A stretch of 64,000 nucleotides of DNA from Candidatus Peregrinibacteria bacterium. GTDB taxonomy: Bacteria; Patescibacteriota; Gracilibacteria; UBA1369; UM-FILTER-53-11. The stretch lies in contig JACPMA010000017.1 in NCBI GenBank assembly GCA_016186205.1, positions 56,777-120,776 on the forward strand. The letters run 5' to 3'. The notes beneath the pieces are model-generated. The model did no database searches. It saw nothing but the letters and a program-made list of their open reading frames with translations, and had not been told where the DNA came from. Position numbers and translations under genes: made by a program. Below, one piece after another: positions 1 through 53,087 of the stretch; within the stretch, counting starts at the first letter, position 1; the number at the start of each line of letters is the position of its first letter.

Positions 1-2248
1 GACTGCCGCCTAAAATAACTACTCCGGTATCTGGAAATGACGGATATTCTCCGCTTCTTAGTCTGACATTTTTAACCGTCATCAATCTCTTTGCCGCTTC
101 TCCGCCGAGCAATTGTTCCAAGGCGCCTCTCATGAGAGGATTTGTGAAACAGTCGCCGAATTCAACAAGGGTGAGCGGCGGCTGGCCTCCTGTCCGCTCA
201 CAAATTTCTTCAAGGGTTGCAACAAGATTTCTTTGTTCATCCTGCAAATCGACTAGACGCGGAATGCGCGAATTTCTAGGCAGTTCATTTACGGGAATAC
301 GGCGTTTTTTATGAATTCCTTCGCCATCCTTTCCTCTTAGAGGGAAAGTTTCGGTGCTGAACTCCGGATCATTATTTAATAGAATGGCGCCTCCTTCCAT
401 TGCTCGCACTCGGTTTCGAACTTTCTTTATTTCCGAATTTACCAAACCGACTGCGTTCAAACGGCAAGCTTCCCATAGCGGAGCACCAACCTCTCCCGCG
501 CTGGCATTGCGCCATTGATCAGTGCCAAAAATACTTCTTTCCAAAAGATCGTCAACTTCTCGATGAACGCCTTGAAATTCAAATCTGCCGCGTCTTATTT
601 TTAGCGCCCTGTCTGCTTCAGAGTCGCCGGTAATTAAAGTCGAATCGATAAGAATTCTCCGAAGTTCTCCCATGATTTGGCTTCGAAGAACCCGTTCAGG
701 CCAAGATGTAGCATACTCATCGATAGGTACGCCGGAACACCCTGAACGCAATAATTCCGCTTTCTCGGCTGCATTGAAAAAAGCGAATGAACCATCTTCT
801 CCTGCTATGCATCGTTGCACGAGAATTGACCTTGGTCCCGCGGCAGAGCAAATCACTTCAACTCGATATTGCGGTCCGAGTTTTTGTTGAAGCCTTTGCC
901 AAATCTCTATGCGTTCGTAGCGGGTATATGACTCACGCATGCCGTCATCTAAAATAATGCCTCCCGGTTTAAGTCGGCGGCAAAAAGATTCCATGAGAGT
1001 TTCATATGCTGCATCTTCAAGATGAGAAGAAGCTCGAAAACAATTCACCATGTCCAAGAGCGGTTTTTCTTCCACTAATTGACCAAACTCTTCAAATTTT
1101 CCAAGAATGACATGGTGGGGCCAGATTGTTATGTGCTGGGCTAAATCGGTCGGTTGCTCCTTCGGTTTTTTTATTGGATCCCAGAATTCAGGCGTGAAAT
1201 ATTTTTTTACAAACTCTGCGCCGGACTTTGAAGATTCTGCCCCCTTTTTTTCGCCAGCAAAAAGCGATTGAATAAGCGCTCGGCATTCTGGCGAAATATC
1301 CATATCCGTGTCGCGAATAAATTCTCCGTCAGCCTTGATCTTTTTAAGACCGATGAGATTCGGGAGGTAGCCGGGAAGCCCGAGAAGAATACTCCTGATG
1401 TAGTTTGGATCCATTTGAAGCAGGCATAGTCTTTGCAGCAATTTCGATGGATCGTTATTGAACTCTTTTGAATAATGGAGGCGCCGCAGTAAGAGGGTGC
1501 AGATAATATGAATTAATTCATGAACAGCTCCGTCCTTTTTATATTCATCCTTCAGAAAGGTTGTCATGAGATCTTCCAACGTATAATAAATTCGATCGGC
1601 ATAGCCGATTTCCGTAAAGTAATCAATAAGTCTTCTTCCGTTTCCAAAAGGGTCAGTGCGGTCTCTGCGCAAACGTTCCAGCATTACGCCGGTGCCACAA
1701 CCGGCGTGGAGATGAACGAGCTTTCCTTCGCGGATAGGAGCTGTCGTAGCAAGCTGGCCGTTTCGACGATGAAATCTTAATAAAATAGCCTCTGCCTGTG
1801 CGAGAGAAGCGACCCCAAAACCTTCTGAAATTTCATCCTCTCGATTTACGCTCCAGTCTCCCTGGGTTAGCATTTCTGCTATTCCGAGTTTTAAATAAAG
1901 CGCCTTTATTCCCATTTGATTTGATGAATTCCGGAGGTACGCTTCACGTTCTTCATAATGCGCGCCGTCATATCTCATTTGTCCTAAAGCTCTGCGTTCG
2001 TCATCAAGAAGACGCATAAGAGCTTTTGCGGTCGGTTTTCCTCTGTGTTTTATTTTTCCGGTCCTTTCATCGGTATAACTTTCACCCGGATCAGCTGCGG
2101 TAGCTATTGCTTTTATACGATGATATTCGATATCAGTTAAATCGCGCGGATTTGCGAACAGTCGAACATCAGGAGTTCTTTCGTGTCCCCCTAAATCTTT
2201 TAATTCAACCGTGCGTATATGGTCTGGTTGGTCTGGCCGATCTGGCAT
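1..2248 (-). CDS. Large protein (>749 aa, runs off the window edge): split class I SAM-methyltransferase-like region followed by the start of a type-1 glutamine amidotransferase-like domain
   Basis: Translated by hand: open frame from ATG 2248 (MPDRPDQPDH...) to the window edge with no stop. Motifs: HAGCGTG, LDMVNCFRASSHL...RLKPGG, LVEFGDCFTNPL, GVVILGGS. Not in the ORF track because it has no stop in the window. Confidence 0.7.
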   Translation of the reverse strand, partial: MPDRPDQPDHIRTVELKDLGGHERTPDVRLFANPRDLTDIEYHRIKAIATAADPGESYTDERTGKIKHRGKPTAKALMRLLDDERRALGQMRYDGAHYEEREAYLRNSSNQMGIKALYLKLGIAEMLTQGDWSVNREDEISEGFGVASLAQAEAILLRFHRRNGQLATTAPIREGKLVHLHAGCGTGVMLERLRRDRTDPFGNGRRLIDYFTEIGYADRIYYTLEDLMTTFLKDEYKKDGAVHELIHIICTLLLRRLHYSKEFNNDPSKLLQRLCLLQMDPNYIRSILLGLPGYLPNLIGLKKIKADGEFIRDTDMDISPECRALIQSLFAGEKKGAESSKSGAEFVKKYFTPEFWDPIKKPKEQPTDLAQHITIWPHHVILGKFEEFGQLVEEKPLLDMVNCFRASSHLEDAAYETLMESFCRRLKPGGIILDDGMRESYTRYERIEIWQRLQQKLGPQYRVEVICSAAGPRSILVQRCIAGEDGSFAFFNAAEKAELLRSGCSGVPIDEYATSWPERVLRSQIMGELRRILIDSTLITGDSEADRALKIRRGRFEFQGVHREVDDLLERSIFGTDQWRNASAGEVGAPLWEACRLNAVGLVNSEIKKVRNRVRAMEGGAILLNNDPEFSTETFPLRGKDGEGIHKKRRIPVNELPRNSRIPRLVDLQDEQRNLVATLEEICERTGGQPPLTLVEFGDCFTNPLMRGALEQLLGGEAAKRLMTVKNVRLRSGEYPSFPDTGVVILGGS

Positions 2249-2345
2249 GGAGGCGTAAAATACACCACAAACATGAATATGTCAAAGAGGGCCTTTATCC
2301 TAATCTGTAAGCCCTCTTTTTAATCTTGCCGATAGAAGAGTTAGT

Positions 2346-3026
2346 TTACCCCGCGTGCCTCTTCAAAAACCCAAAATGGTACACAAATCCTGCTACTAGC
2401 GCGCCGATCACCGGGCCGACCCAGTAAATGTAGTGCGTTCCCCAGTGAGAGCTCACGAGCGCCGGTCCGAAAGATCTTGCCGGATTTAAAGCTGCCATCG
2501 TGAAACTGCCGCCGATCATAACTCCAACCGCAAATACAAGTCCGACGCAAAGTCCGCCGAATCCTCCGGTAGCTCTTTTATCAACGAGCGTTGCAAATAC
2601 TGTCCAGACTAGGAAGAATGTGAGAATCGCTTCCACTAAAATTCCCATGCCCGGCGTAGTTCCTGGAAGGAGCATTGTGTCGCCAAGAAAATATTGCGGC
2701 GAGACGCCGACAAAAACCACTTTCAAAAAAAGCGCCGCTACGACCGATCCGACGAGCTGCGCCAGAATGTATCCGACTGCCATGAGCGTTTTTACATGGC
2801 CGGTAGCCCATAAAGCTACAGTCACCGCCGGATTTACATGAGCGCCGGAAATATGCCATGCGCTATAAATTATTGCCGTGAGCGCAAGGCCGTGCGCGAG
2901 CGCAATGCCGACAGTGCCTAGCCCGCCAGCAGTTTTCCAGTTAGCCAGAACGGATCCGGCTGCTATGAAGACGAACGCAAAAGTCGCGAACGCTTCCGTG
3001 AGATATTTTTGCCAATTATCCTGCAT
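2346..3026 (-). CDS. Aquaporin / MIP family channel
   Basis: Two NPA motifs (SGAHVNPAVT, LNPARSFGPA) and six hydrophobic helices. Confidence 0.95.
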   Translation of the reverse strand: MQDNWQKYLTEAFATFAFVFIAAGSVLANWKTAGGLGTVGIALAHGLALTAIIYSAWHISGAHVNPAVTVALWATGHVKTLMAVGYILAQLVGSVVAALFLKVVFVGVSPQYFLGDTMLLPGTTPGMGILVEAILTFFLVWTVFATLVDKRATGGFGGLCVGLVFAVGVMIGGSFTMAALNPARSFGPALVSSHWGTHYIYWVGPVIGALVAGFVYHFGFLKRHAG

Positions 3027-3117
3027 AGGAATATTTGGTTAGGAAATAAAAATAAGCATTTCAAAAATTACTCACAGAATATAACTTTTATGTTTTTTTG
3101 TCAAAAGACGTGAGACA

Positions 3118-4431
3118 TCAAAAGACGCGTCGGCCGGCGATGTATGTTTTTCGGACAATTGCTTCTAAATCCGCCTGGCTGCCTGCAAAAATTTCCGCCA
3201 AGAGATGATTGGGGTTTGCATATGCGCGCGTTCCAGGACTTCCTAGAACAGCAAAAGTTGCTTCTTTATCGCGATTGAGATTTCCGGCAACACGATCAAC
3301 GCCGAGAATTTCTGCGCCTGCGAGCGTTCCGCGGTAAAGGGCTTCGGTTTCAGAAACATCAGCGTGGCCAGCATGCACGCGGTTATATGCTTGCATAACA
3401 TGAAGCATACTTAAACTCGGACCGGCGCCGACATCGGAACCAAGCGCATACAAAATGCCGCGTTCGCGAATTCGTTCAACCGGCATGCGTCCGCTGCCAA
3501 GCGCTTCATTTGAAGTCGGGCAGTGCGCAACGCATGTGCCGGTTTGCGCAAGTACATCAAGTTCTTCGTCCGAAGCATGAATAACATGCGCCATTATTGT
3601 GTGGCGTCCAAGCAATCCAGCGCGCGCATAGACATCGGTATAACTTTTTGCATCCGGAAAGAGCCGCCGTACCAATTCCACTTCATCGTGTTCAGTTCCG
3701 TCATGATTTTCGCTTAAGTGGGTTTGAACCCATACATTTCTCTGTTTTGCAATTCTACCAGCTGCCTTTAGCACTTCTGCGCTGCACGAAGGCGCAAAAC
3801 GCGGAGTAACGGCGTAACTTCCGCCGAATTCTTCCGCAAATCTATCCGTCATAGCCAAAGCTTCTTCCGGATCCTGTTTTAGGTATGGAGGAAAATCGCT
3901 CGTCATGATCACGTTTCCAATAACCATGCGTCCCGCAGCGTGTTGAAATGCCGCGCGTAAAGCGCTTTCATGAACAGAAGAATAAACAGCAGCTACTGTT
4001 GTGCCATGCCTTGCAAGTTCATCAAAAAAAGTTTGTGCCCGCGCATCGGCTAACTGGGCATCTGCATAACGGTGTTCTTCCGGCCAAATATGTTCTTCAA
4101 GCCATGGCATGAGAGAATTGCGAAATCTTCCACGCACTTCATTTTGCACCCAGTGAACATGAAGATCGTTCATGCCTGGAATAATAGTAGGCCGTTCGCC
4201 ATGTTTAGTTTCATCTATTACCTCATAGCGATCGGCAAAAGCTACTGCAAGAAGTGTGAAATCGCCGACTGCCGCTACAGTGCCATCCGCGCGTACTGCC
4301 AGTCCGCCGTCTTCATGGTAATCGCAATCATTCGGACCTTGCGGGTTAACTATTCTGGCGCGATGAACAGCTTTTATCGGCGGAGGAAATGCTTCCATTC
4401 CCCGCAGCTGCGGTGCATTCGGAAAATTCAT
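3118..4431 (-). CDS. guaD: Guanine deaminase (amidohydrolase superfamily); start uncertain
   Basis: DLHVHWVQ, VTPRFAPSCS, QTHLSEN, HCPTSN..LGSG and GSDVGAG motifs. Confidence 0.85.
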   Translation of the reverse strand: MNFPNAPQLRGMEAFPPPIKAVHRARIVNPQGPNDCDYHEDGGLAVRADGTVAAVGDFTLLAVAFADRYEVIDETKHGERPTIIPGMNDLHVHWVQNEVRGRFRNSLMPWLEEHIWPEEHRYADAQLADARAQTFFDELARHGTTVAAVYSSVHESALRAAFQHAAGRMVIGNVIMTSDFPPYLKQDPEEALAMTDRFAEEFGGSYAVTPRFAPSCSAEVLKAAGRIAKQRNVWVQTHLSENHDGTEHDEVELVRRLFPDAKSYTDVYARAGLLGRHTIMAHVIHASDEELDVLAQTGTCVAHCPTSNEALGSGRMPVERIRERGILYALGSDVGAGPSLSMLHVMQAYNRVHAGHADVSETEALYRGTLAGAEILGVDRVAGNLNRDKEATFAVLGSPGTRAYANPNHLLAEIFAGSQADLEAIVRKTYIAGRRVF

Positions 4432-16160: not shown

Positions 16161-16790
16161 GTGATCGATCTTCTTTCCATTATCATCGCCATCGTATTTT
16201 GCGTAACAATTCACGAATTTTGCCATGCGTGGATGGCGAATCGTTTGGGAGATCCGACCGCGCGCGTTTTCGGGCGTTTGAGCCTCAATCCTTTGCGGCA
16301 TTTTGACCTTGTCGGAACGCTTTCGCTCATTTTTTTCGGCATCGGTTGGGGCAAGCCGGTGCCGTATAATGAAGAAAATTTACGTTCACCCAAGCGCGAT
16401 GGCGCTTTGATTGCTCTTGCCGGACCGATTTCGAATTTGCTCACTGCGATTGTTTTTGCAATTCCTTTAAAATATTTGAGCGATACCGGTTTTCGCACAT
16501 TCCCGCTCTATAACCTCATATATTTTTTGTTTAATTTCAGCGTAGTTCTTTTTGCGCTGAATGTGCTTCCGTTTCCGCCGTTTGACGGCTCGAAAATCAT
16601 CGGTCTTTTTGTGCCGCGGCGTTTTCACCGCGCCTACGAAATTTATTTGAAAGAAGGCGTAAAATACATCATTATTTTTATTCTTTTTGATGTGTTTGTG
16701 CTGGAGAGGTCATTTAATTTTTCAGTTTTAGGCTCGGTTTTAGGCAAGATGGTTTTTTGGATCAAGGCGATTATTTACGCTGGGACGTGA
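16161..16790 (+). CDS. Site-2 protease (M50 family)
   Basis: HEFCH, GDPT, AGP.SN, NVLPFPPFDG. Confidence 0.92.
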   Translation: MIDLLSIIIAIVFCVTIHEFCHAWMANRLGDPTARVFGRLSLNPLRHFDLVGTLSLIFFGIGWGKPVPYNEENLRSPKRDGALIALAGPISNLLTAIVFAIPLKYLSDTGFRTFPLYNLIYFLFNFSVVLFALNVLPFPPFDGSKIIGLFVPRRFHRAYEIYLKEGVKYIIIFILFDVFVLERSFNFSVLGSVLGKMVFWIKAIIYAGT

Positions 16791-25679: not shown

Positions 25680-26084
25680 ATGAAAAAAGCCCATGCCCAT
25701 TGCGATGTGCCATGTGGAGTTTACGAAACCGATTCCGCGCTCTGGGCAGTTGAAACCTGCCAGAAATTGGTCGAAAAACTTCTCGCGCTTGAGGCGCCTG
25801 CTGCCAACAATAAACAAGCTTCACTCGAGTATCAGAATACAGTTACCCGCACCGTGCTCGTAAAAGAAGAATACGCGCAGATCTGCAAAAATCAGCTCCT
25901 TATTTTATGGACGGATTACTTCAAAGCGGAGCATATTGCAAAATGGCCGGATCTTCACGAGAAAATTTGGAAAGCTGCAAAACAATGTTCGGTTGTGAAA
26001 CGAACCGTGAATCTTGATGAAGTAAAAAAATTGCGAACTTTGGTTGAAGAAATCGCAGGAATCTTTAAGGCTTCAAAGGCGTAA
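25680..26084 (+). CDS. sodN: Nickel superoxide dismutase precursor
   Basis: Ni-hook AHA-HCDVPCGVY; LWTDYFK. Confidence 0.95.
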   Translation: MKKAHAHCDVPCGVYETDSALWAVETCQKLVEKLLALEAPAANNKQASLEYQNTVTRTVLVKEEYAQICKNQLLILWTDYFKAEHIAKWPDLHEKIWKAAKQCSVVKRTVNLDEVKKLRTLVEEIAGIFKASKA

Positions 26085-26093
26085 ATTGTTCCT

Positions 26094-26369
26094 ATGTTTC
26101 CATTTGCTCGGTATGAAATTGAGGGCGAGAGCATGATTCCGGCATATCAACCCGGCGATCGCGTACTCGTTTTTCGCTGGGGAACGGTAAAATCAGGCGA
26201 TACGGTTATTTTCTGTAAAAACGGAATGACGATGGTAAAGCGAGCCGTAGCAAAAGAAGGCGATCGCTGGATTATGAAAGGCGATAATTGGAAACGCAGC
26301 TGCGACAGCGAAGATTTTGGCGGCGTGGCGGATGAAGAAATTATCGGCAAGGTGGTAGCTACGTATTAA
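26094..26369 (+). CDS. sodX: Ni-SOD maturation protease (S26-like)
   Basis: G.SM.P, VKR, GDN...S.DS..FG; immediately after sodN. Confidence 0.9.
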   Translation: MFPFARYEIEGESMIPAYQPGDRVLVFRWGTVKSGDTVIFCKNGMTMVKRAVAKEGDRWIMKGDNWKRSCDSEDFGGVADEEIIGKVVATY

Positions 26370-49835: not shown

Positions 49836-49878
49836 TTGCATATTACACAAAAATATGTTACTATAGAACTAGTACTAG
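49836..49878 (+). promoter_or_regulatory. Sigma70 promoter for the repeat-peptide gene, with a palindrome at the predicted +1
   Basis: TTGCAT (49836-41), 17-nt spacer ending TGT, TACTAT (49859-64); CTAGTACTAG at 49869-78. Confidence 0.6.
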
Positions 49879-49902
49879 GCTGAACCATTAACAGAAATAA
49901 AT

Positions 49903-50157
49903 ATGCCACATGCAATTTCTCAATATAAGCAAAAGATTTTTTGGATTGTAATCGCCATACTTGCGGCCGTATCGCTTGCCGTGTTGTTTTCGTTTGTGAA
50001 TAATAAGCAAATAGCCGATCAAGCAAAAACATCCGTCATTAATGGCGTCGGGATTTCTCCGGAACCATTTGGCCGGAGAGGTATTTCTCCAGAACCCTTC
50101 GGCAGACGCGGAATAAGCCCAGAACCATTTGGCCGGAACGCGCGTCGATATCGTTAA
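49903..50157 (+). CDS. 84-aa exported precursor peptide with 3x GISPEPFGR(R/N) repeats
   Basis: Basic N-region plus ~20-aa hydrophobic helix; repeats differ only at synonymous sites over 9 codons; has its own promoter. Confidence 0.85.
   Translation: MPHAISQYKQKIFWIVIAILAAVSLAVLFSFVNNKQIADQAKTSVINGVGISPEPFGRRGISPEPFGRRGISPEPFGRNARRYR
50050..50139 (+). repeat. Three tandem 30-nt coding repeats
   Basis: GGGATTTCTCCGGAACCATTTGGCCGGAGA / GGTATTTCTCCAGAACCCTTCGGCAGACGC / GGAATAAGCCCAGAACCATTTGGCCGGAAC. Confidence 0.95.
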
Positions 50158-50158
50158 T

Positions 50159-51544
50159 TTACGCTGATGCAAAAAGAGTCGCCTTCGGTCTTTTAACAAT
50201 GATCCCGACTTGCTTTGCCAAATTGCGCAGCGATTCTTCAGCCCAGCGCACCACGCGCAAATCAGCACGCTCAAAAAATAATTCCGTGGCTTGTTCAATA
50301 TACGGTTTAGCTTGCTCCGGTCCCGCCAAAGCAAGAAGAATTCCTCCGCTGTTGATAAGCACTGAAAGCAAAAGCTCAATATTGCCGGATCCGGCCTCAA
50401 GAGCTTTTTGATTCGAAGCAAGAGCCATTTTGAGTTCATCCTCGCCGGCAGGATCATGCCATCCAAACCGCAAAAGTTCTCCATAGAGAATATCCACCAT
50501 GCCCCTCATAAGAGGATTTTTCGCTTGTTCGCTTAGAATTTGCATATGGCCGATAGCCTGCGAAGCATCGGAAAACATTCTTGAATTTCCAGGAACCGCC
50601 GCCGCTTTCAAGCAAAGAATCTTTGCAAGATTGTAAGCCGTTCTCAATAATTCGCCGCCTTCAGTTTCTAGCCCAGACGTTTTTTCGAGCAAAGCCATAG
50701 CGCGCCTCGTATGAGCTTCCGCTGTTTCTAAAAGGTTAAGCTGCTCTTTGCGTAGCCGCATTATGCCTCCCTCGTCGCAATATGGTTTTGCTTTTACGAA
50801 AAAATCGCGCCGCTCCTCGGCTTTCTTAAGATAAGAAGCGCCGATAAGCCTTCGATGATCAGCCTCAACCCTTGGTTTCTCAAATTCCGGCAAAGCTTCG
50901 CCAAGCTGAATGGTTTCATCATAGCCGGAAAGAGCAGAGCCTTCATTATCGCCAACAGCATTGTAGCCGCGTCGAAAAGCAAGTGCGAGTTCAGTGATGC
51001 GGAGAATGTCATCATAGGAAATACCTAAGCGTTGCTGTATATCCAAAAGTAGACGCACATTATCTTGGAATAAATCTTGTGTTGCTTGGGTAATTTCCCG
51101 AACGCGAAGAGTTTTGAAAAGAAACCAAAGAACTTCATGCGTTTGCTCCGGCGTGAGCCGCGAGTCATTTTCAGCAAGCGTCCGAAAAGTTTCATACGCC
51201 TTCATCGTGTTTCCTATAAGAAAGTAGAGCTTTCCTTGTTCGATAGAAAGCTGCGGTGTGTATTTCATTTTATGAGCCCACTCGAGCAATACGATTGCAG
51301 CAGGAAAATTTTTGGCATGCAGCTCGCGTTCATACGCCAGCATGGCGACAGCAAACTTTTTTTCAGAATCAGTTTCGCCATCTATGACTGCCGCAACTTC
51401 ACGGTTTACGGCTGTTGCTTCAAGCTCAACTGTGCCGCCAGTTTGTGTTTCTTCATGCTGTGCAAGCTCACGGATGCGGGCAAGCACTGCCTGTCCTCGT
51501 TCATGGGGAGCAAGGTCATGATCTGGAGATTGAGGAGCGTCCAT
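50159..51544 (-). CDS. All-helical TPR-like protein
   Basis: TPR-type helix pairs (QGKLYFLIGNTMKAYETF; AYNLAKIL; NSGGILLALAGPEQAKPYIEQATEL); no signal peptide. Confidence 0.65.
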   Translation of the reverse strand: MDAPQSPDHDLAPHERGQAVLARIRELAQHEETQTGGTVELEATAVNREVAAVIDGETDSEKKFAVAMLAYERELHAKNFPAAIVLLEWAHKMKYTPQLSIEQGKLYFLIGNTMKAYETFRTLAENDSRLTPEQTHEVLWFLFKTLRVREITQATQDLFQDNVRLLLDIQQRLGISYDDILRITELALAFRRGYNAVGDNEGSALSGYDETIQLGEALPEFEKPRVEADHRRLIGASYLKKAEERRDFFVKAKPYCDEGGIMRLRKEQLNLLETAEAHTRRAMALLEKTSGLETEGGELLRTAYNLAKILCLKAAAVPGNSRMFSDASQAIGHMQILSEQAKNPLMRGMVDILYGELLRFGWHDPAGEDELKMALASNQKALEAGSGNIELLLSVLINSGGILLALAGPEQAKPYIEQATELFFERADLRVVRWAEESLRNLAKQVGIIVKRPKATLFASA

Positions 51545-51653
51545 AGGCTTTTAAAAAGGCATTCAGTATAGCATTTTAGACCATCTTGCCAAAGATCAAT
51601 TTTGTCTGTAAATTTTGGGCCAATGAGGCCTTATTTATTAACTTTGTATTTGT

Positions 51654-53012: not shown

Positions 53013-53087
53013 TGGTGCGCCCGCCAGGAATCGAACCTGGATCAGAAGCTCCGCAAGCTTCCATTCTATCCGTTGAACTACGGGCGC
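53013..53087 (-). tRNA. tRNA-Arg (GCG)
   Basis: Reverse complement GCGCCCGTAGTTCAACGGATAGAAT-G-GAAGC-TTGCGGA-GCTTC...GGTTCGATTCC...ACCA. Confidence 0.93.

What the first reader, a model, noticed from the sequence alone, without database searches (positions are those of the whole stretch)
49836..51544. Prohormone-like repeat-peptide precursor (3x GISPEPF-GR[R]) tail-to-tail with a TPR-like protein: candidate peptide signalling or multicore peptide system
Seen: an 84-aa ORF with a basic N-region and hydrophobic helix, then three 10-codon repeats (GISPEPFGRR, GISPEPFGRR, GISPEPFGRN) and a basic tail. The nine shared codons differ only synonymously, including a TCT->AGC Ser switch and CGG/AGA for Arg. 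This indicates selection on the peptide rather than slippage. The gene has its own TTGCAT-17-TACTAT promoter with a CTAGTACTAG palindrome at about +1. Its stop lies 1 nt from the stop of a 461-aa cytoplasmic TPR-like gene. Established: core-Gly-dibasic repeats behind a signal peptide are the layout of eukaryotic amidated neuropeptide and Kex2-processed precursors. An exported short peptide beside a TPR receptor is the layout of RRNPP/arbitrium systems (Rap-Phr, NprR-NprX, AimR-AimP). Inference: the precursor is cut at RR to release several copies of GISPEPF(G), which act as a signal sensed by the TPR protein or by a host cell. Caveats: RRNPP pairs are normally co-oriented, the first repeat lacks an upstream RR, and no amidating or RiPP enzyme is adjacent. 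An M16 peptidase and an M50 protease occur elsewhere in the window but are not linked.
Basis: partly seen in the sequence, partly recalled or inferred. Interest (0 to 1): 0.85.

Follow-up and report, generated by a model that had tools for sequence, protein, structure and literature searches.

The report
Tri-repeat exported peptide beside orphan TPR protein
A tiny groundwater bacterium carries a conserved gene for a small membrane-anchored protein that displays three copies of one short peptide, paired tail-to-tail with an otherwise orphan peptide-binding-type (TPR) protein; it looks like a peptide-and-receptor pair of the kind Gram-positive bacteria use to talk to each other, but its function is untested.

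Summary
Window 49903-50157 (+) encodes an 84-aa protein with a short basic N-tail, a 21-residue hydrophobic helix, a linker and 3x GISPEPFGR[RN]. The repeats differ only by synonymous codons. Its stop lies 1 nt from the stop of a convergent 461-aa ORF, 50159-51544 (-).

The small gene is real. Four relatives of 79-83 aa keep three repeats, and the repeat block has pN 0.08 while synonymous sites are saturated. The 461-aa protein has no Pfam hit but folds confidently into a TPR superhelix (pLDDT 84). Peptide-bound LGN, phage Rap and NprR are among its top structural matches, alongside generic TPR proteins.

Both genes are orphans, absent from the other 204 genomes of the order searched. They stay adjacent in all 3 contexts that could be resolved. 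A sister genus (G007) carries an analogous cassette at the same site after rpe. It has a TM helix, 3x [QS]LDDGKG[YF] and an overlapping convergent 423-aa all-alpha ORF with no detectable sequence similarity.

My best reading (about 0.35) is a Rap-Phr-like multi-copy propeptide with a cytoplasmic TPR receptor, in a CPR-like lineage. Evidence against it:
- no homology to RRNPP receptors
- no HTH domain
- no Opp system
- no S8/Kex2 protease
- an OPT importer in G000 but not in G007

The function is untested.

The parts
49836..49864 (+). Putative promoter of the small gene: TTGCAT (49836-41), 17-nt spacer, TGT-TACTAT (extended -10, 49856-64)
   Evidence: Read. Below the scanner's threshold. The -35 TTGC and the TGTTAnnAT -10 are conserved in position in L010. 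G007 has TTGCCA-17-TATAAT at the same place.
49869..49878 (.). CTAGTACTAG palindrome near the predicted +1
   Evidence: Present. Not conserved in the L010 ortholog, so probably not an operator.
49903..50157 (+). 84-aa small protein gene (stop included): N-tail aa 1-11, hydrophobic helix aa 12-32 (49936-49998), linker aa 33-49, repeats, basic tail
   Evidence: Orthologs at 71-85% identity. pN 0.158 against saturated pS versus L010. Charge difference C-flank minus N-flank is -1 to -2 in all 6 proteins, which predicts N-in/C-out (the rule is recalled).
50050..50139 (+). Three tandem 10-codon units: GISPEPFGRR / GISPEPFGRR / GISPEPFGRN
   Evidence: Codon table. In the alignment of the window protein and 3 database orthologs, I51-G57 is invariant in unit 1, and G60-G67 and G70-G77 are invariant in units 2 and 3. 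L010 has E to D in units 2 and 3. pN 0.081 for this block.
50159..51544 (-). 461-aa cytoplasmic TPR-superhelix protein (stop included); no signal peptide, no Pfam domain
   Evidence: AF2 model with pLDDT 84.3 and pTM 0.83, 20 helices. Foldseek and VIA matches to peptide-binding TPR proteins. Relatives at 66-70% identity and 9 hits at E<=1e-3 in 1.84 billion representatives.
51565..51592 (-). Putative promoter of the TPR gene: TTGGCA, 16-nt spacer, TG-TATACT (10 of 12 matches)

Best explanation
This is a lineage-restricted two-gene module.

Gene 1 encodes a small type-II (N-in/C-out) membrane pro-protein. Its extracytoplasmic tail carries three copies of a 9-10-residue peptide, each followed by a basic residue and then Gly.

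Gene 2 is convergent, with its stop 1 nt away. It encodes a cytoplasmic TPR superhelix that is the cognate binder of that peptide.

The most likely mechanism is that of Rap-Phr and other RRNPP pairs:
1. The precursor is inserted by Sec/YidC.
2. An extracellular or membrane protease cuts at the basic-Gly junctions and releases several copies of roughly GISPEPFGR(R).
3. The peptide accumulates outside and is taken up. An OPT-family transporter is the only candidate importer seen in this genome.
4. The peptide binds in the concave groove of the TPR protein.
5. Binding changes the TPR protein's interaction with an unknown target. There is no DNA-binding domain, so the output would be Rap-like, through protein-protein contact.

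Shown:
- the gene is real and under selection on the peptide
- the predicted topology
- the TPR fold
- both genes are orphans, and their adjacency is conserved
- a second peptide/partner variant exists at the same locus

Inferred:
- cleavage
- release
- uptake
- binding
- output
For: (1) Coding and selection. There are 5 orthologs of 79-84 aa with three repeats each. Against L010, synonymous sites are saturated (pS 0.82-0.94) while the repeat block has pN 0.081, similar to rpe (0.067) and rpiB (0.116). Repeats within one gene differ only synonymously.

(2) Export. A basic N-tail, a 21-residue hydrophobic helix and a charge difference of -1 to -2 in 6 of 6 proteins predict a C-terminus outside the cell. 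Signal peptidase I is present.

(3) Partner fold. The AF2 model has pLDDT 84.3. VIA-align gives LGN TPR+peptide Z 19.3, phage phi105 Rap+peptide Z 19.2 (rmsd 4.3, 278 aligned), NprR+NprX Z 17.6, pLS20 Rap Z 16.0, RapI 15.4, AimR 14.6 and PlcR+PapR 14.3.

(4) Genetic coupling.
- Both genes were found in 1 of 205 genomes of the order (for the TPR). The small ORF had no significant hit in 60 relatives; the best non-self E-value was 0.026.
- They are adjacent and convergent in the window and in L010 (0-nt gap).
- P0002 and P0008 both sit on a contig of 6,787 bp.

(5) A second variant. In G007 (same family, other genus), directly after rpe, an 86-aa ORF has a basic N-tail, a TM helix and 3x [QS]LDDGKG[YF]. 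Its repeats again differ mostly by synonymous codons. It overlaps by 7 nt a convergent 423-aa all-alpha ORF that is also an orphan, found in 1 of 205 genomes. No such small ORF lies downstream of rpe in the other 8 family loci or in 40 loci from other families of the order. Peptide and partner changing together is what receptor/ligand pairs do.

(6) Precedent. Propeptides with 1-4 pheromone copies are known for Rap-Phr (PMC11343458, Introduction). Convergent overlapping shp/rgg pairs are known (PMC13361665, passages).

(7) An OPT oligopeptide transporter is present in G000.
Against: - No sequence relation to any RRNPP receptor. A profile of the family against all PDB sequences gives 6 hits at E<=10, none of them RRNPP.
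- No Pfam TPR or HTH hit for the window protein at E<=0.1.
- The structural matches are those of any long TPR solenoid. LGN, APC subunits, Tom70 and OGT score alike.
- No Opp system was found in G000: BPD_transp_1 0 and oligo_HPY 0. PTR2 is also 0.
- G007 has neither OPT nor BPD_transp_1 at 90% completeness. OPT also occurs in G004, which lacks the cassette at rpe.
- No conserved signal-peptidase site follows the helix, so the protein may simply stay anchored (by eye).
- No S8 protease was found.
- The G007 partner shows no detectable homology to the TPR family (hhalign probability 0.2%; phmmer best E 0.14). Its single-sequence model is poor (pLDDT 54), so 'same system' rests on architecture and position only.
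- Only a handful of genomes carry either cassette, so co-occurrence counts are small and the carriers are related.
Confidence: 0.35

Rival explanations
1. The small protein stays anchored in the membrane and displays a short, disordered, trivalent repeat on the cell surface, as an adhesin-like, matrix-binding or host-binding tag of an episymbiont. The cytoplasmic TPR protein is functionally linked in another way. It could hold the extended repeat tail before export as a client-specific chaperone or targeting factor, or it could bind the 11-residue cytoplasmic N-tail.
For: - The 21-residue helix has mean hydrophobicity 2.7-3.4 and no conserved cleavage motif.
- No importer is shared by G000 and G007.
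- The top structural match, LGN, comes from structures of its TPR domain in complex with partner peptides (titles).
- A 30-residue tri-repeat matches the length scale of a solenoid of about 9 repeats (inference).
- Co-variation of tail and partner fits a dedicated chaperone as well as it fits a receptor.
- The sample is groundwater, and the genome is CPR-like (1.39 Mb, L30 not found).
Against: - A 50-residue tail should not need a 461-aa dedicated chaperone.
- The strict invariance of the 8-residue core in three copies is more typical of a specific ligand than of a surface spacer.
- No cell-wall anchoring or adhesin domain was found.
Confidence: 0.25
2. The two genes are unrelated neighbours. 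They are two fast-evolving orphan genes that landed in a variable spot downstream of rpe and are inherited together only because they are adjacent.
For: - The region after rpe is variable within the family. G005 has a DUF4256-like gene and then ald. G003, G006 and G009 have DUF4015. G004 has orphan ORFs of 314 and 518 aa.
- The carriers are few and closely related.
- Each gene has its own promoter-like site.
Against: - The same unusual pairing (TM helix plus tri-repeat small ORF, convergent with a 420-460-aa all-alpha ORF, stops touching or overlapping) recurs with unrelated sequences in G007.
- It is not seen at the 48 other rpe loci examined.
- At the genome-wide rate of 5 per 7,446 ORFs, about 0.1 repeat-bearing small ORFs would be expected among the 176 ORFs of the 9 family loci (my arithmetic).
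- Composition is native: GC 0.46-0.47 and GC3 0.39-0.41, like the neighbouring genes.
Confidence: 0.15
3. The small ORF is a multicore precursor of a secreted bioactive peptide, either RiPP-like or antimicrobial. The TPR protein would be a scaffold or immunity factor.
For: The layout is a leader followed by repeated cores separated by a conserved junction. Such layouts exist in multicore RiPPs (recalled, not checked here).
Against: - No modifying enzyme, dedicated protease or ABC exporter is adjacent. The neighbours are rpiB, rpe, alanine dehydrogenase and DUF4015, and the order is the same in L010.
- The 'leader' is a membrane helix, not a recognition sequence.
- The cores are hydrophilic and lack Cys, and the Ser residues have no partner enzyme nearby.
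Confidence: 0.07
4. The peptide mimics a eukaryote-type amidated or Kex2-processed hormone and acts on a host cell.
For: The window clade has a core-Gly-Arg-Arg layout.
Against: - No Peptidase_S8 (the Kex2/subtilisin family) was found in the genome.
- The G007 variant has Gly-Lys-Gly, not Gly-dibasic.
- The habitat is groundwater. The hosts of CPR bacteria are prokaryotes (recalled).
- The amidating enzyme was not searched for.
Confidence: 0.03

Closest known systems
Rap-Phr systems with tandemly duplicated propeptides (phages phi3T and phi105; RRNPPA family)
   Same: - A small exported precursor carries several copies of one short peptide, next to a cytoplasmic TPR protein of about 350-460 aa that lacks a DNA-binding domain.
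- The phi105 Rap-peptide structure is the second-best structural match (Z 19.2).
- 1-4 pheromone copies per propeptide are reported (PMC11343458, abstract and Introduction).
   Different: - No sequence homology.
- Convergent rather than co-directional arrangement.
- A 21-residue anchor-like helix instead of a clear Sec signal peptide.
- No Opp system.
- No subtilisin-type protease.
- The host is a CPR-like bacterium with a 1.4-Mb genome, not Bacillota.
- The model has about 95 extra N-terminal residues relative to the Rap alignment.
Group III Rgg/SHP pairs of streptococci
   Same: The peptide gene is convergent with the receptor gene and overlaps or abuts its 3' end (PMC13361665, passages). 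The receptor is a cytoplasmic repeat protein.
   Different: - Rgg proteins have an HTH domain and degenerate TPRs.
- SHPs are single, short, hydrophobic peptides exported by PptAB and cut by Eep.
- Here the peptide is hydrophilic, present in three copies, and sits behind a membrane helix.
LGN/Pins TPR domain with extended partner peptides (NuMA, Inscuteable, Frmpd4)
   Same: Best structural matches: Foldseek E 7.9e-6 and VIA Z 19.3 with 313 residues aligned. A long superhelix of about 8-9 TPRs whose solved structures are complexes with partner peptides (entry titles).
   Different: LGN is a eukaryotic cell-polarity protein. Identity is 15-16% and there is no evolutionary link. The similarity is of fold class only.
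Kex2-processed multi-copy precursors (yeast alpha-factor, fungal dikaritins) and amidated neuropeptide precursors
   Same: A signal-like N-terminus is followed by tandem identical cores separated by basic residues, with Gly before the basic pair.
   Different: - No S8 protease in the genome.
- A single Lys separates units in the G007 variant.
- The organism is a bacterium.
- A membrane-anchor-grade helix.
- The knowledge of these families is recalled, not checked in a paper here.

Membership tests
RRNPP(A) quorum-sensing pairs | Receptor of 250-500 aa with TPR-type repeats | tested here: met
   461 aa. The AF2 model is an all-helical superhelix. TPR proteins fill the Foldseek and VIA lists. 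Distant relatives carry weak Pfam TPR hits. However, the HMM criterion used by RRNPP_detector (TPR HMM E<1e-5; PMC10075063, section 17) is not met by Pfam for the window protein: 0 families at E<=0.1.
RRNPP(A) quorum-sensing pairs | Sequence homology of the receptor to Rap, Rgg, NprR, PlcR, PrgX or AimR | tested here: not met
   A profile of 11 family members against 177,635 PDB sequences gives 6 hits at E<=10, none of them an RRNPP receptor.
RRNPP(A) quorum-sensing pairs | N-terminal effector domain (HTH, or the Rap three-helix bundle) | tested here: inconclusive
   No HTH family in Pfam. The first 60 residues are poorly conserved and partly low-confidence. A Rap-like bundle cannot be told apart from ordinary TPR helices with these tools.
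RRNPP(A) quorum-sensing pairs | Adjacent small ORF (10-100 aa; 50-120 aa in PMC11343458) encoding the propeptide | tested here: met
   An 84-aa ORF lies 1 nt from the receptor's stop. The arrangement is conserved in L010.
RRNPP(A) quorum-sensing pairs | Propeptide has a Sec/SPI signal sequence and is secreted | tested here: inconclusive
   A basic N-region, a hydrophobic helix and a predicted C-out topology are present. A weak KxYKxGKxW signal-peptide hit was seen (E 0.069, below cut-off). No conserved cleavage motif is visible. SignalP was not available.
RRNPP(A) quorum-sensing pairs | Re-import of the mature peptide by the oligopeptide permease Opp | tested here: not met
   BPD_transp_1, oligo_HPY and PTR2 were not found in G000 at 92% completeness. 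Two orphan SBP_bac_5 proteins and one OPT transporter are present. G007 has neither OPT nor BPD_transp_1.
RRNPP(A) quorum-sensing pairs | Conserved groove asparagine that holds the peptide backbone (Asn227 of RapF; PMC3601957, passages) | tested here: inconclusive
   N398 is invariant across the 11-member alignment, and N305, N343 and N378 are nearly invariant. N305 and N398 fall in A-type helices of the model.
RRNPP(A) quorum-sensing pairs | Occurrence in Bacillota or their mobile elements | tested here: not met
   1.39-Mb genome from groundwater runs. Relatives listed in the order and class have genomes of 0.7-2.0 Mb. Ribosomal protein L30 was not found. This fits CPR/Patescibacteria (the L30 criterion is recalled), but the phylum name was not given by any tool. 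No match in viral contigs.
Kex2/prohormone-convertase-processed multi-copy precursors | Dibasic sites flanking each core, and an S8 convertase to cut them | tested here: not met
   RR follows units 1 and 2 in the window, but there is no basic pair before unit 1. The G007 variant has a single K. Peptidase_S8 was not found in G000.
Multicore RiPP precursors | Adjacent modifying enzyme, protease or transporter genes | tested here: not met
   The neighbours are rpiB, rpe, alanine dehydrogenase and DUF4015 in the window, in the same order in L010.

The most novel reading that the evidence does not exclude
CPR-type ultra-small bacteria have evolved their own peptide-and-TPR communication cassette, independent of the Bacillota RRNPP family. 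It would sit at a hypervariable 'pherotype' locus after rpe, where the tri-repeat peptide and its cytoplasmic TPR partner are swapped or co-diversify between genera (GISPEPFGRR in one, SLDDGKGY in another). Recognition could be repeat-on-repeat, with the three peptide units lying along successive TPRs of the superhelix. It could mediate kin recognition or density sensing among episymbionts.
Probability: 0.2. Interest if true: 0.85.

Novelty: new variant of a known kind. Interest (0 to 1): 0.6.

Why it matters
Peptide/TPR (RRNPP) communication is known only from Bacillota and their phages and plasmids. I found no paper containing both 'Candidate Phyla Radiation' and 'RRNPP'. The one paper with both 'Patescibacteria' and 'RRNPP' is a plasmid review, seen only as a search listing.

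If this cassette is a signalling pair, it would show three things:
- Ultra-small, host-dependent groundwater bacteria use genetically encoded peptide signals.
- The exported multi-copy propeptide plus cytoplasmic TPR receptor design arose more than once.
- It can work without Opp.

The two sequence-unrelated variants at one locus give a ready-made specificity test: each TPR protein against its own peptide and the other's. Even if the signalling reading is wrong, the pair is a clean example of a small protein under strong selection on a 10-residue motif repeated three times, which standard annotation would miss.

Tried and rejected
- Complex prediction of the TPR protein (alignment A3) with residues 36-84 of the small protein (alignment A5) gave the verdict 'no answer', score 0.01 against a mark of 0.32. 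Controls were not run. It is not used as evidence either way.
- Expression: the look-up of sequencing runs listed 4 DNA runs of one groundwater study and no RNA holder. In read laying, each run has one contig covering 49700-51700 with 0 differences. There was no indel and no repeat-number variant. The runs may be the source of this DNA and are not independent.
- Tandem Repeats Finder found nothing at DNA level.
- A search for longer proteins with the small ORF found none at E<=1 among 50 candidates. The tool notes this is weak evidence.
- Genome-contig scan with the TPR alignment: 69 pattern matches, none a relative.
- Genome-contig scan with Rpe: only distant hits (at most 58% identity, mostly Bacillota and others) that gave no taxonomic placement.
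- Viral-contig scans with both alignments: none.
- Phylum sample: 2 of 401 genomes, namely G000 and one weak partial hit.
- Class sample: 7 of 401 genomes at E<=0.01. The six non-self hits cover only query residues about 30-134 in 253-293-aa membrane-anchored generic TPR proteins, most of them beside a conserved ~310-350-aa ORF (the same gene in 5 of the 6 loci) that I did not annotate. I do not count them as family members.
- Homology of the G007 423-aa partner to the TPR family: hhalign probability 0.2% and phmmer best E 0.14. Pfam gives only sub-threshold TetR_C_11 and TPR_19. The single-sequence AF2 model has pLDDT 54, too poor for a fold search.
- ESM Atlas: no usable feature hit for the small protein, and its structure hits are single-helix look-alikes. 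For the TPR protein, only generic TPR clusters.
- 'Asparagine ladder' idea: the conserved Asn residues exist, but I could not map them to the groove.
- OPT as a marker of the system was rejected. It is present in G000 and G004 but not in G007.
- Horizontal acquisition was rejected on composition.
As a result, the genomic contexts of the Logan-only orthologs and of the distant TPR relatives P0010-P0016 could not be read.
- Supplements of the papers were not opened. Supplementary tables of PMC10075063 could list non-Firmicutes candidates that I did not see.
Full report
**1. What is there**

Window 49903-50157 (+) is an 84-aa ORF. Its parts are:
- an 11-residue N-tail with two lysines next to the helix
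- a 21-residue hydrophobic segment (aa 12-32, mean Kyte-Doolittle 2.82)
- a 17-residue linker
- three 10-residue units GISPEPFGRR, GISPEPFGRR, GISPEPFGRN (aa 50-79, nt 50050-50139)
- a tail ARRYR

The codon table shows that the nine shared residues of the three units are written with different synonymous codons: GGG/GGT/GGA, ATT/ATT/ATA, TCT/TCT/AGC, CCG/CCA/CCA, CCA/CCC/CCA, TTT/TTC/TTT, and CGG AGA versus AGA CGC. Tandem Repeats Finder sees no DNA repeat. Pairwise synonymous differences between units are 0.55-1.0 per site, with no amino-acid change. The triplication is therefore old and is kept at the protein level.

The stop (50155-57) is 1 nt from the stop (50159-61) of a convergent 461-aa ORF at 50159-51544 (-).

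It is too weak for the scanner. Its -35 TTGC and extended -10 are conserved in position in an ortholog. The palindrome at +1 is not conserved.

A Shine-Dalgarno sequence is absent, but that is normal here. Only 73 of 722 long ORFs have even a 4-mer SD-like word upstream.

**2. The small gene is real**

The 5.8-billion-cluster search found three relatives (81, 83 and 81 aa; 85, 81 and 71% identity), all from assembled public runs. A fourth (79 aa) lies on a 100-kb metagenome contig, locus L010.

All keep the same plan. In the alignment of the window protein and the three database relatives, I51-G57 of unit 1 and all of G60-G67 and G70-G77 (units 2 and 3) are invariant, as is the stretch from N33 to G50 except positions 39 and 41. 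The helix and N-tail vary. L010 has Glu to Asp in units 2 and 3 and lacks two linker residues.

Between the window and L010, synonymous sites are saturated in every gene compared (pS 0.70-0.94). The repeat block has pN 0.081, compared with rpe 0.067, rpiB 0.116 and ald 0.124. The helix and linker have pN 0.19-0.21.

No longer protein shares the motif. In the whole genome the core SP[ED]PF occurs in frame only here, apart from two chance hits in frames with a stop next to them.

**3. Topology**

In all six small proteins (five orthologs plus the G007 variant), the charge of the 15 residues after the helix, minus that of the N-flank with the N-terminus counted, is -1 to -2. By the charge-difference / positive-inside rule (recalled), this puts the N-tail in the cytoplasm and the repeats outside.

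Signal peptidase I is encoded. I see no conserved small-x-small site close to the helix, and the helix is of membrane-anchor length. I therefore treat 'anchored' and 'cleaved' as both open. SignalP was not available.

**4. The neighbour**

The 461-aa protein has no Pfam family at E<=0.1. It has four close relatives (66-70% identity). It has only 9 hits at E<=1e-3 among 1.84 billion representatives. The more distant ones (29-35% identity, 419-473 aa) carry weak TPR hits.

With an 11-sequence alignment, AlphaFold2 gives a confident model (pLDDT 84.3, pTM 0.83) of 20 helices.

Foldseek puts LGN/Pins TPR complexes first (E 7.9e-6). VIA-align against 48,161 chains gives:

| Chain | Z |
|---|---|
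| LGN + Frmpd4 | 19.3 |
| phage phi105 Rap + peptide | 19.2 (rmsd 4.3, 278 aligned) |
| Pins:Insc | 18.5 |
| APPBP2 + degron | 18.2 |
| NprR + NprX | 17.6 |
| pLS20 Rap | 16.0 |
| RapI | 15.4 |
| AimR | 14.6 |
| PlcR + PapR | 14.3 |

APC subunits, Tom70 and OGT score in the same range, and the tool warns that helical repeats reach Z 13-14 by arrangement alone. The safe statement is that this is a long peptide-binding-type TPR superhelix. RRNPP receptors are among the best matches, but the list does not single them out.

A family profile finds no RRNPP receptor among PDB sequences. There is no signal peptide and no HTH domain.

**5. Are the two genes a pair?**

Both are orphans with the same narrow distribution:
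- The TPR family was found in 1 of 205 genomes of the order (G000 only).
- It was found in 2 of 401 genomes sampled across the phylum. The second is a weak 100-residue generic TPR hit.
- In 401 genomes of the class, the six non-self hits are generic membrane-anchored TPR proteins.
- The small ORF has no significant match in 60 relatives (best non-self E 0.026).

Where context can be read they are together:
- the window
- L010, with the same order rpiB-rpe-small ORF-TPR-ald, convergent with a 0-nt gap
- a 6,787-bp contig that is the longest contig of both P0002 and P0008

The other relatives sit on contigs of 1.3-3.2 kb, too short to tell.

**6. A second variant at the same site**

I looked downstream of rpe in the nine other family genomes that have rpe. 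One of them, G007 (another genus), has an 86-aa ORF starting 76 nt after the rpe stop. It has:
- a basic N-tail
- a TM helix
- a linker
- three 9-residue units QLDDGKGYS, SLDDGKGFT, SLDDGKGYA

The units again differ largely by synonymous codons: TTA/CTC/TTG, GAT/GAC, GGC/GGG, AAG/AAA, TCG/AGT. The ORF sits behind a TTGCCA-17-TATAAT promoter. It overlaps by 7 nt the end of a convergent 423-aa ORF. That ORF is predicted all-alpha and is itself an orphan, found in 1 of 205 genomes.

The two large proteins show no detectable sequence similarity, and the G007 model is too poor to compare folds.

Nothing of the kind lies after rpe in the other 8 family loci or in 40 loci (102 kb, 533 small ORFs) from other families of the order. 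There, the only two filter hits are low-complexity GV and LV runs.

In G000 itself, 5 of 7,446 small ORFs pass the repeat filter, and only the one under study is a credible gene.

Both variants have a basic residue followed by Gly at each unit boundary (R-R-G and K-G). A common cut after the basic residue is therefore possible. This is inference.

The recurrence of the design with unrelated peptide and partner sequences at one locus is the strongest argument that the two genes work together. It resembles the way receptor/peptide specificities diversify in RRNPP families.

**7. Can the RRNPP cycle run here?**

Partly.
- Export machinery and signal peptidase are present.
- The canonical importer is not. 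Two SBP_bac_5 proteins exist, but no BPD_transp_1 permease, no oligo_HPY ATPase domain and no PTR2 were found. The genome is 92% complete.
- One OPT-family transporter lies on the same contig, about 60 kb away.
- G007 has neither OPT nor BPD_transp_1. OPT also occurs in G004, which lacks the cassette at rpe.
- No S8 protease was found.
- M50 proteases exist but are not linked.

Uptake and processing therefore remain unsupported steps.

**8. Comparison with what is known**

- Tandemly duplicated pheromone propeptides (1-4 copies) are described for Rap-Phr, with extracellular proteolysis yielding several active peptides (PMC11343458; abstract and Introduction read).
- Convergent, overlapping peptide/receptor genes define Group III Rgg/SHP (PMC13361665; passages).
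- RRNPP_detector's operational signature is a 250-500-aa TPR protein next to a 10-100-aa ORF with a secretion signal (PMC10075063; section 17). This pair fits the geometry. It would fail the HMM step because Pfam sees no TPR.
- RRNPPA systems are described as a Bacilli/Bacillota family (PMC9765709; passages).

The pair therefore works like, or at least is built like, a Rap-Phr pair. It fails membership on homology, importer and taxon.

The organism is CPR-like:
- a 1.39-Mb genome
- relatives listed in its order and class of 0.7-2.0 Mb
- L30 not found (the criterion is recalled)
- groundwater origin

No tool gave the phylum name.

**9. Verdict**

A peptide plus TPR-partner module is likely. RRNPP-like signalling is the best single mechanism, at about 0.35. 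A surface-anchored repeat with a TPR chaperone or adaptor is the main rival, at about 0.25. The prohormone/amidation analogy is not supported.

The finding is novel as a variant of a known kind, in a lineage where nothing of the sort is described.

Noticed in passing
L100 (G007:C53:30900-33249): 789-1049 (+) and 1043-2314 (-): Analogous cassette in another genus of the family. An 86-aa ORF with a TM helix and 3x [QS]LDDGKG[YF] overlaps by 7 nt a convergent orphan 423-aa all-alpha ORF, directly after rpe. The contig ends 36 nt beyond the large ORF's start.
   Followed up: partly
L097, L098, L099, L101, L102 (family relatives, downstream of rpe): The site after rpe is variable in the family. G005 has a DUF4256-like 117-aa gene and then ald. 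G003, G006 and G009 go straight to DUF4015. G004 has two orphan ORFs (314 and 518 aa, no Pfam) followed by a convergent 379-aa orphan.
   Followed up: partly
L013 (G000:C18:94705-98721): 1234-2769 and 2810-4015: An SBP_bac_5 peptide-binding protein sits directly upstream of a HAMP-SpoIIE (PP2C phosphatase) membrane protein, in a genome where no ABC permease (BPD_transp_1) was found. This could be an extracellular-peptide sensor that signals through a phosphatase rather than a transporter.
   Followed up: no
G000:C16:45674-47452 (about 11 kb before the window start): OPT-family oligopeptide transporter (620-aa frame, 200 bits). It is the only peptide importer family found in the genome. In the family it is present in G000 and G004 only.
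   Followed up: partly
window 26079-26285 (+): A second, short Peptidase_S26 match (34 bits, 94-aa frame) with an in-frame TAA. It may be a signal-peptidase fragment or pseudogene.
   Followed up: no
window 16179-16688 (+): A small (213-aa frame) Peptidase_M50 protein matched in two pieces. A full-length 540-aa M50 lies on contig C14.
   Followed up: no
window 53013-53087 (-): tRNA-Arg (anticodon GCG) between alanine dehydrogenase and the DUF4015 gene.
   Followed up: yes
whole genome G000: Ribosomal protein L30 was not found. Only 73 of 722 long ORFs have a 4-mer Shine-Dalgarno-like word at -20 to -4, so translation initiation here is largely SD-independent.
   Followed up: partly
L012, L147-L150 (other families of the class): A conserved 253-293-aa protein with an N-terminal TM helix and TPRs lies beside a conserved ~310-350-aa ORF (the same gene in all five loci; not annotated here) and, in three of the loci, a conserved 306-aa ORF. 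It gives weak hits to residues about 30-134 of the 461-aa protein.
   Followed up: no
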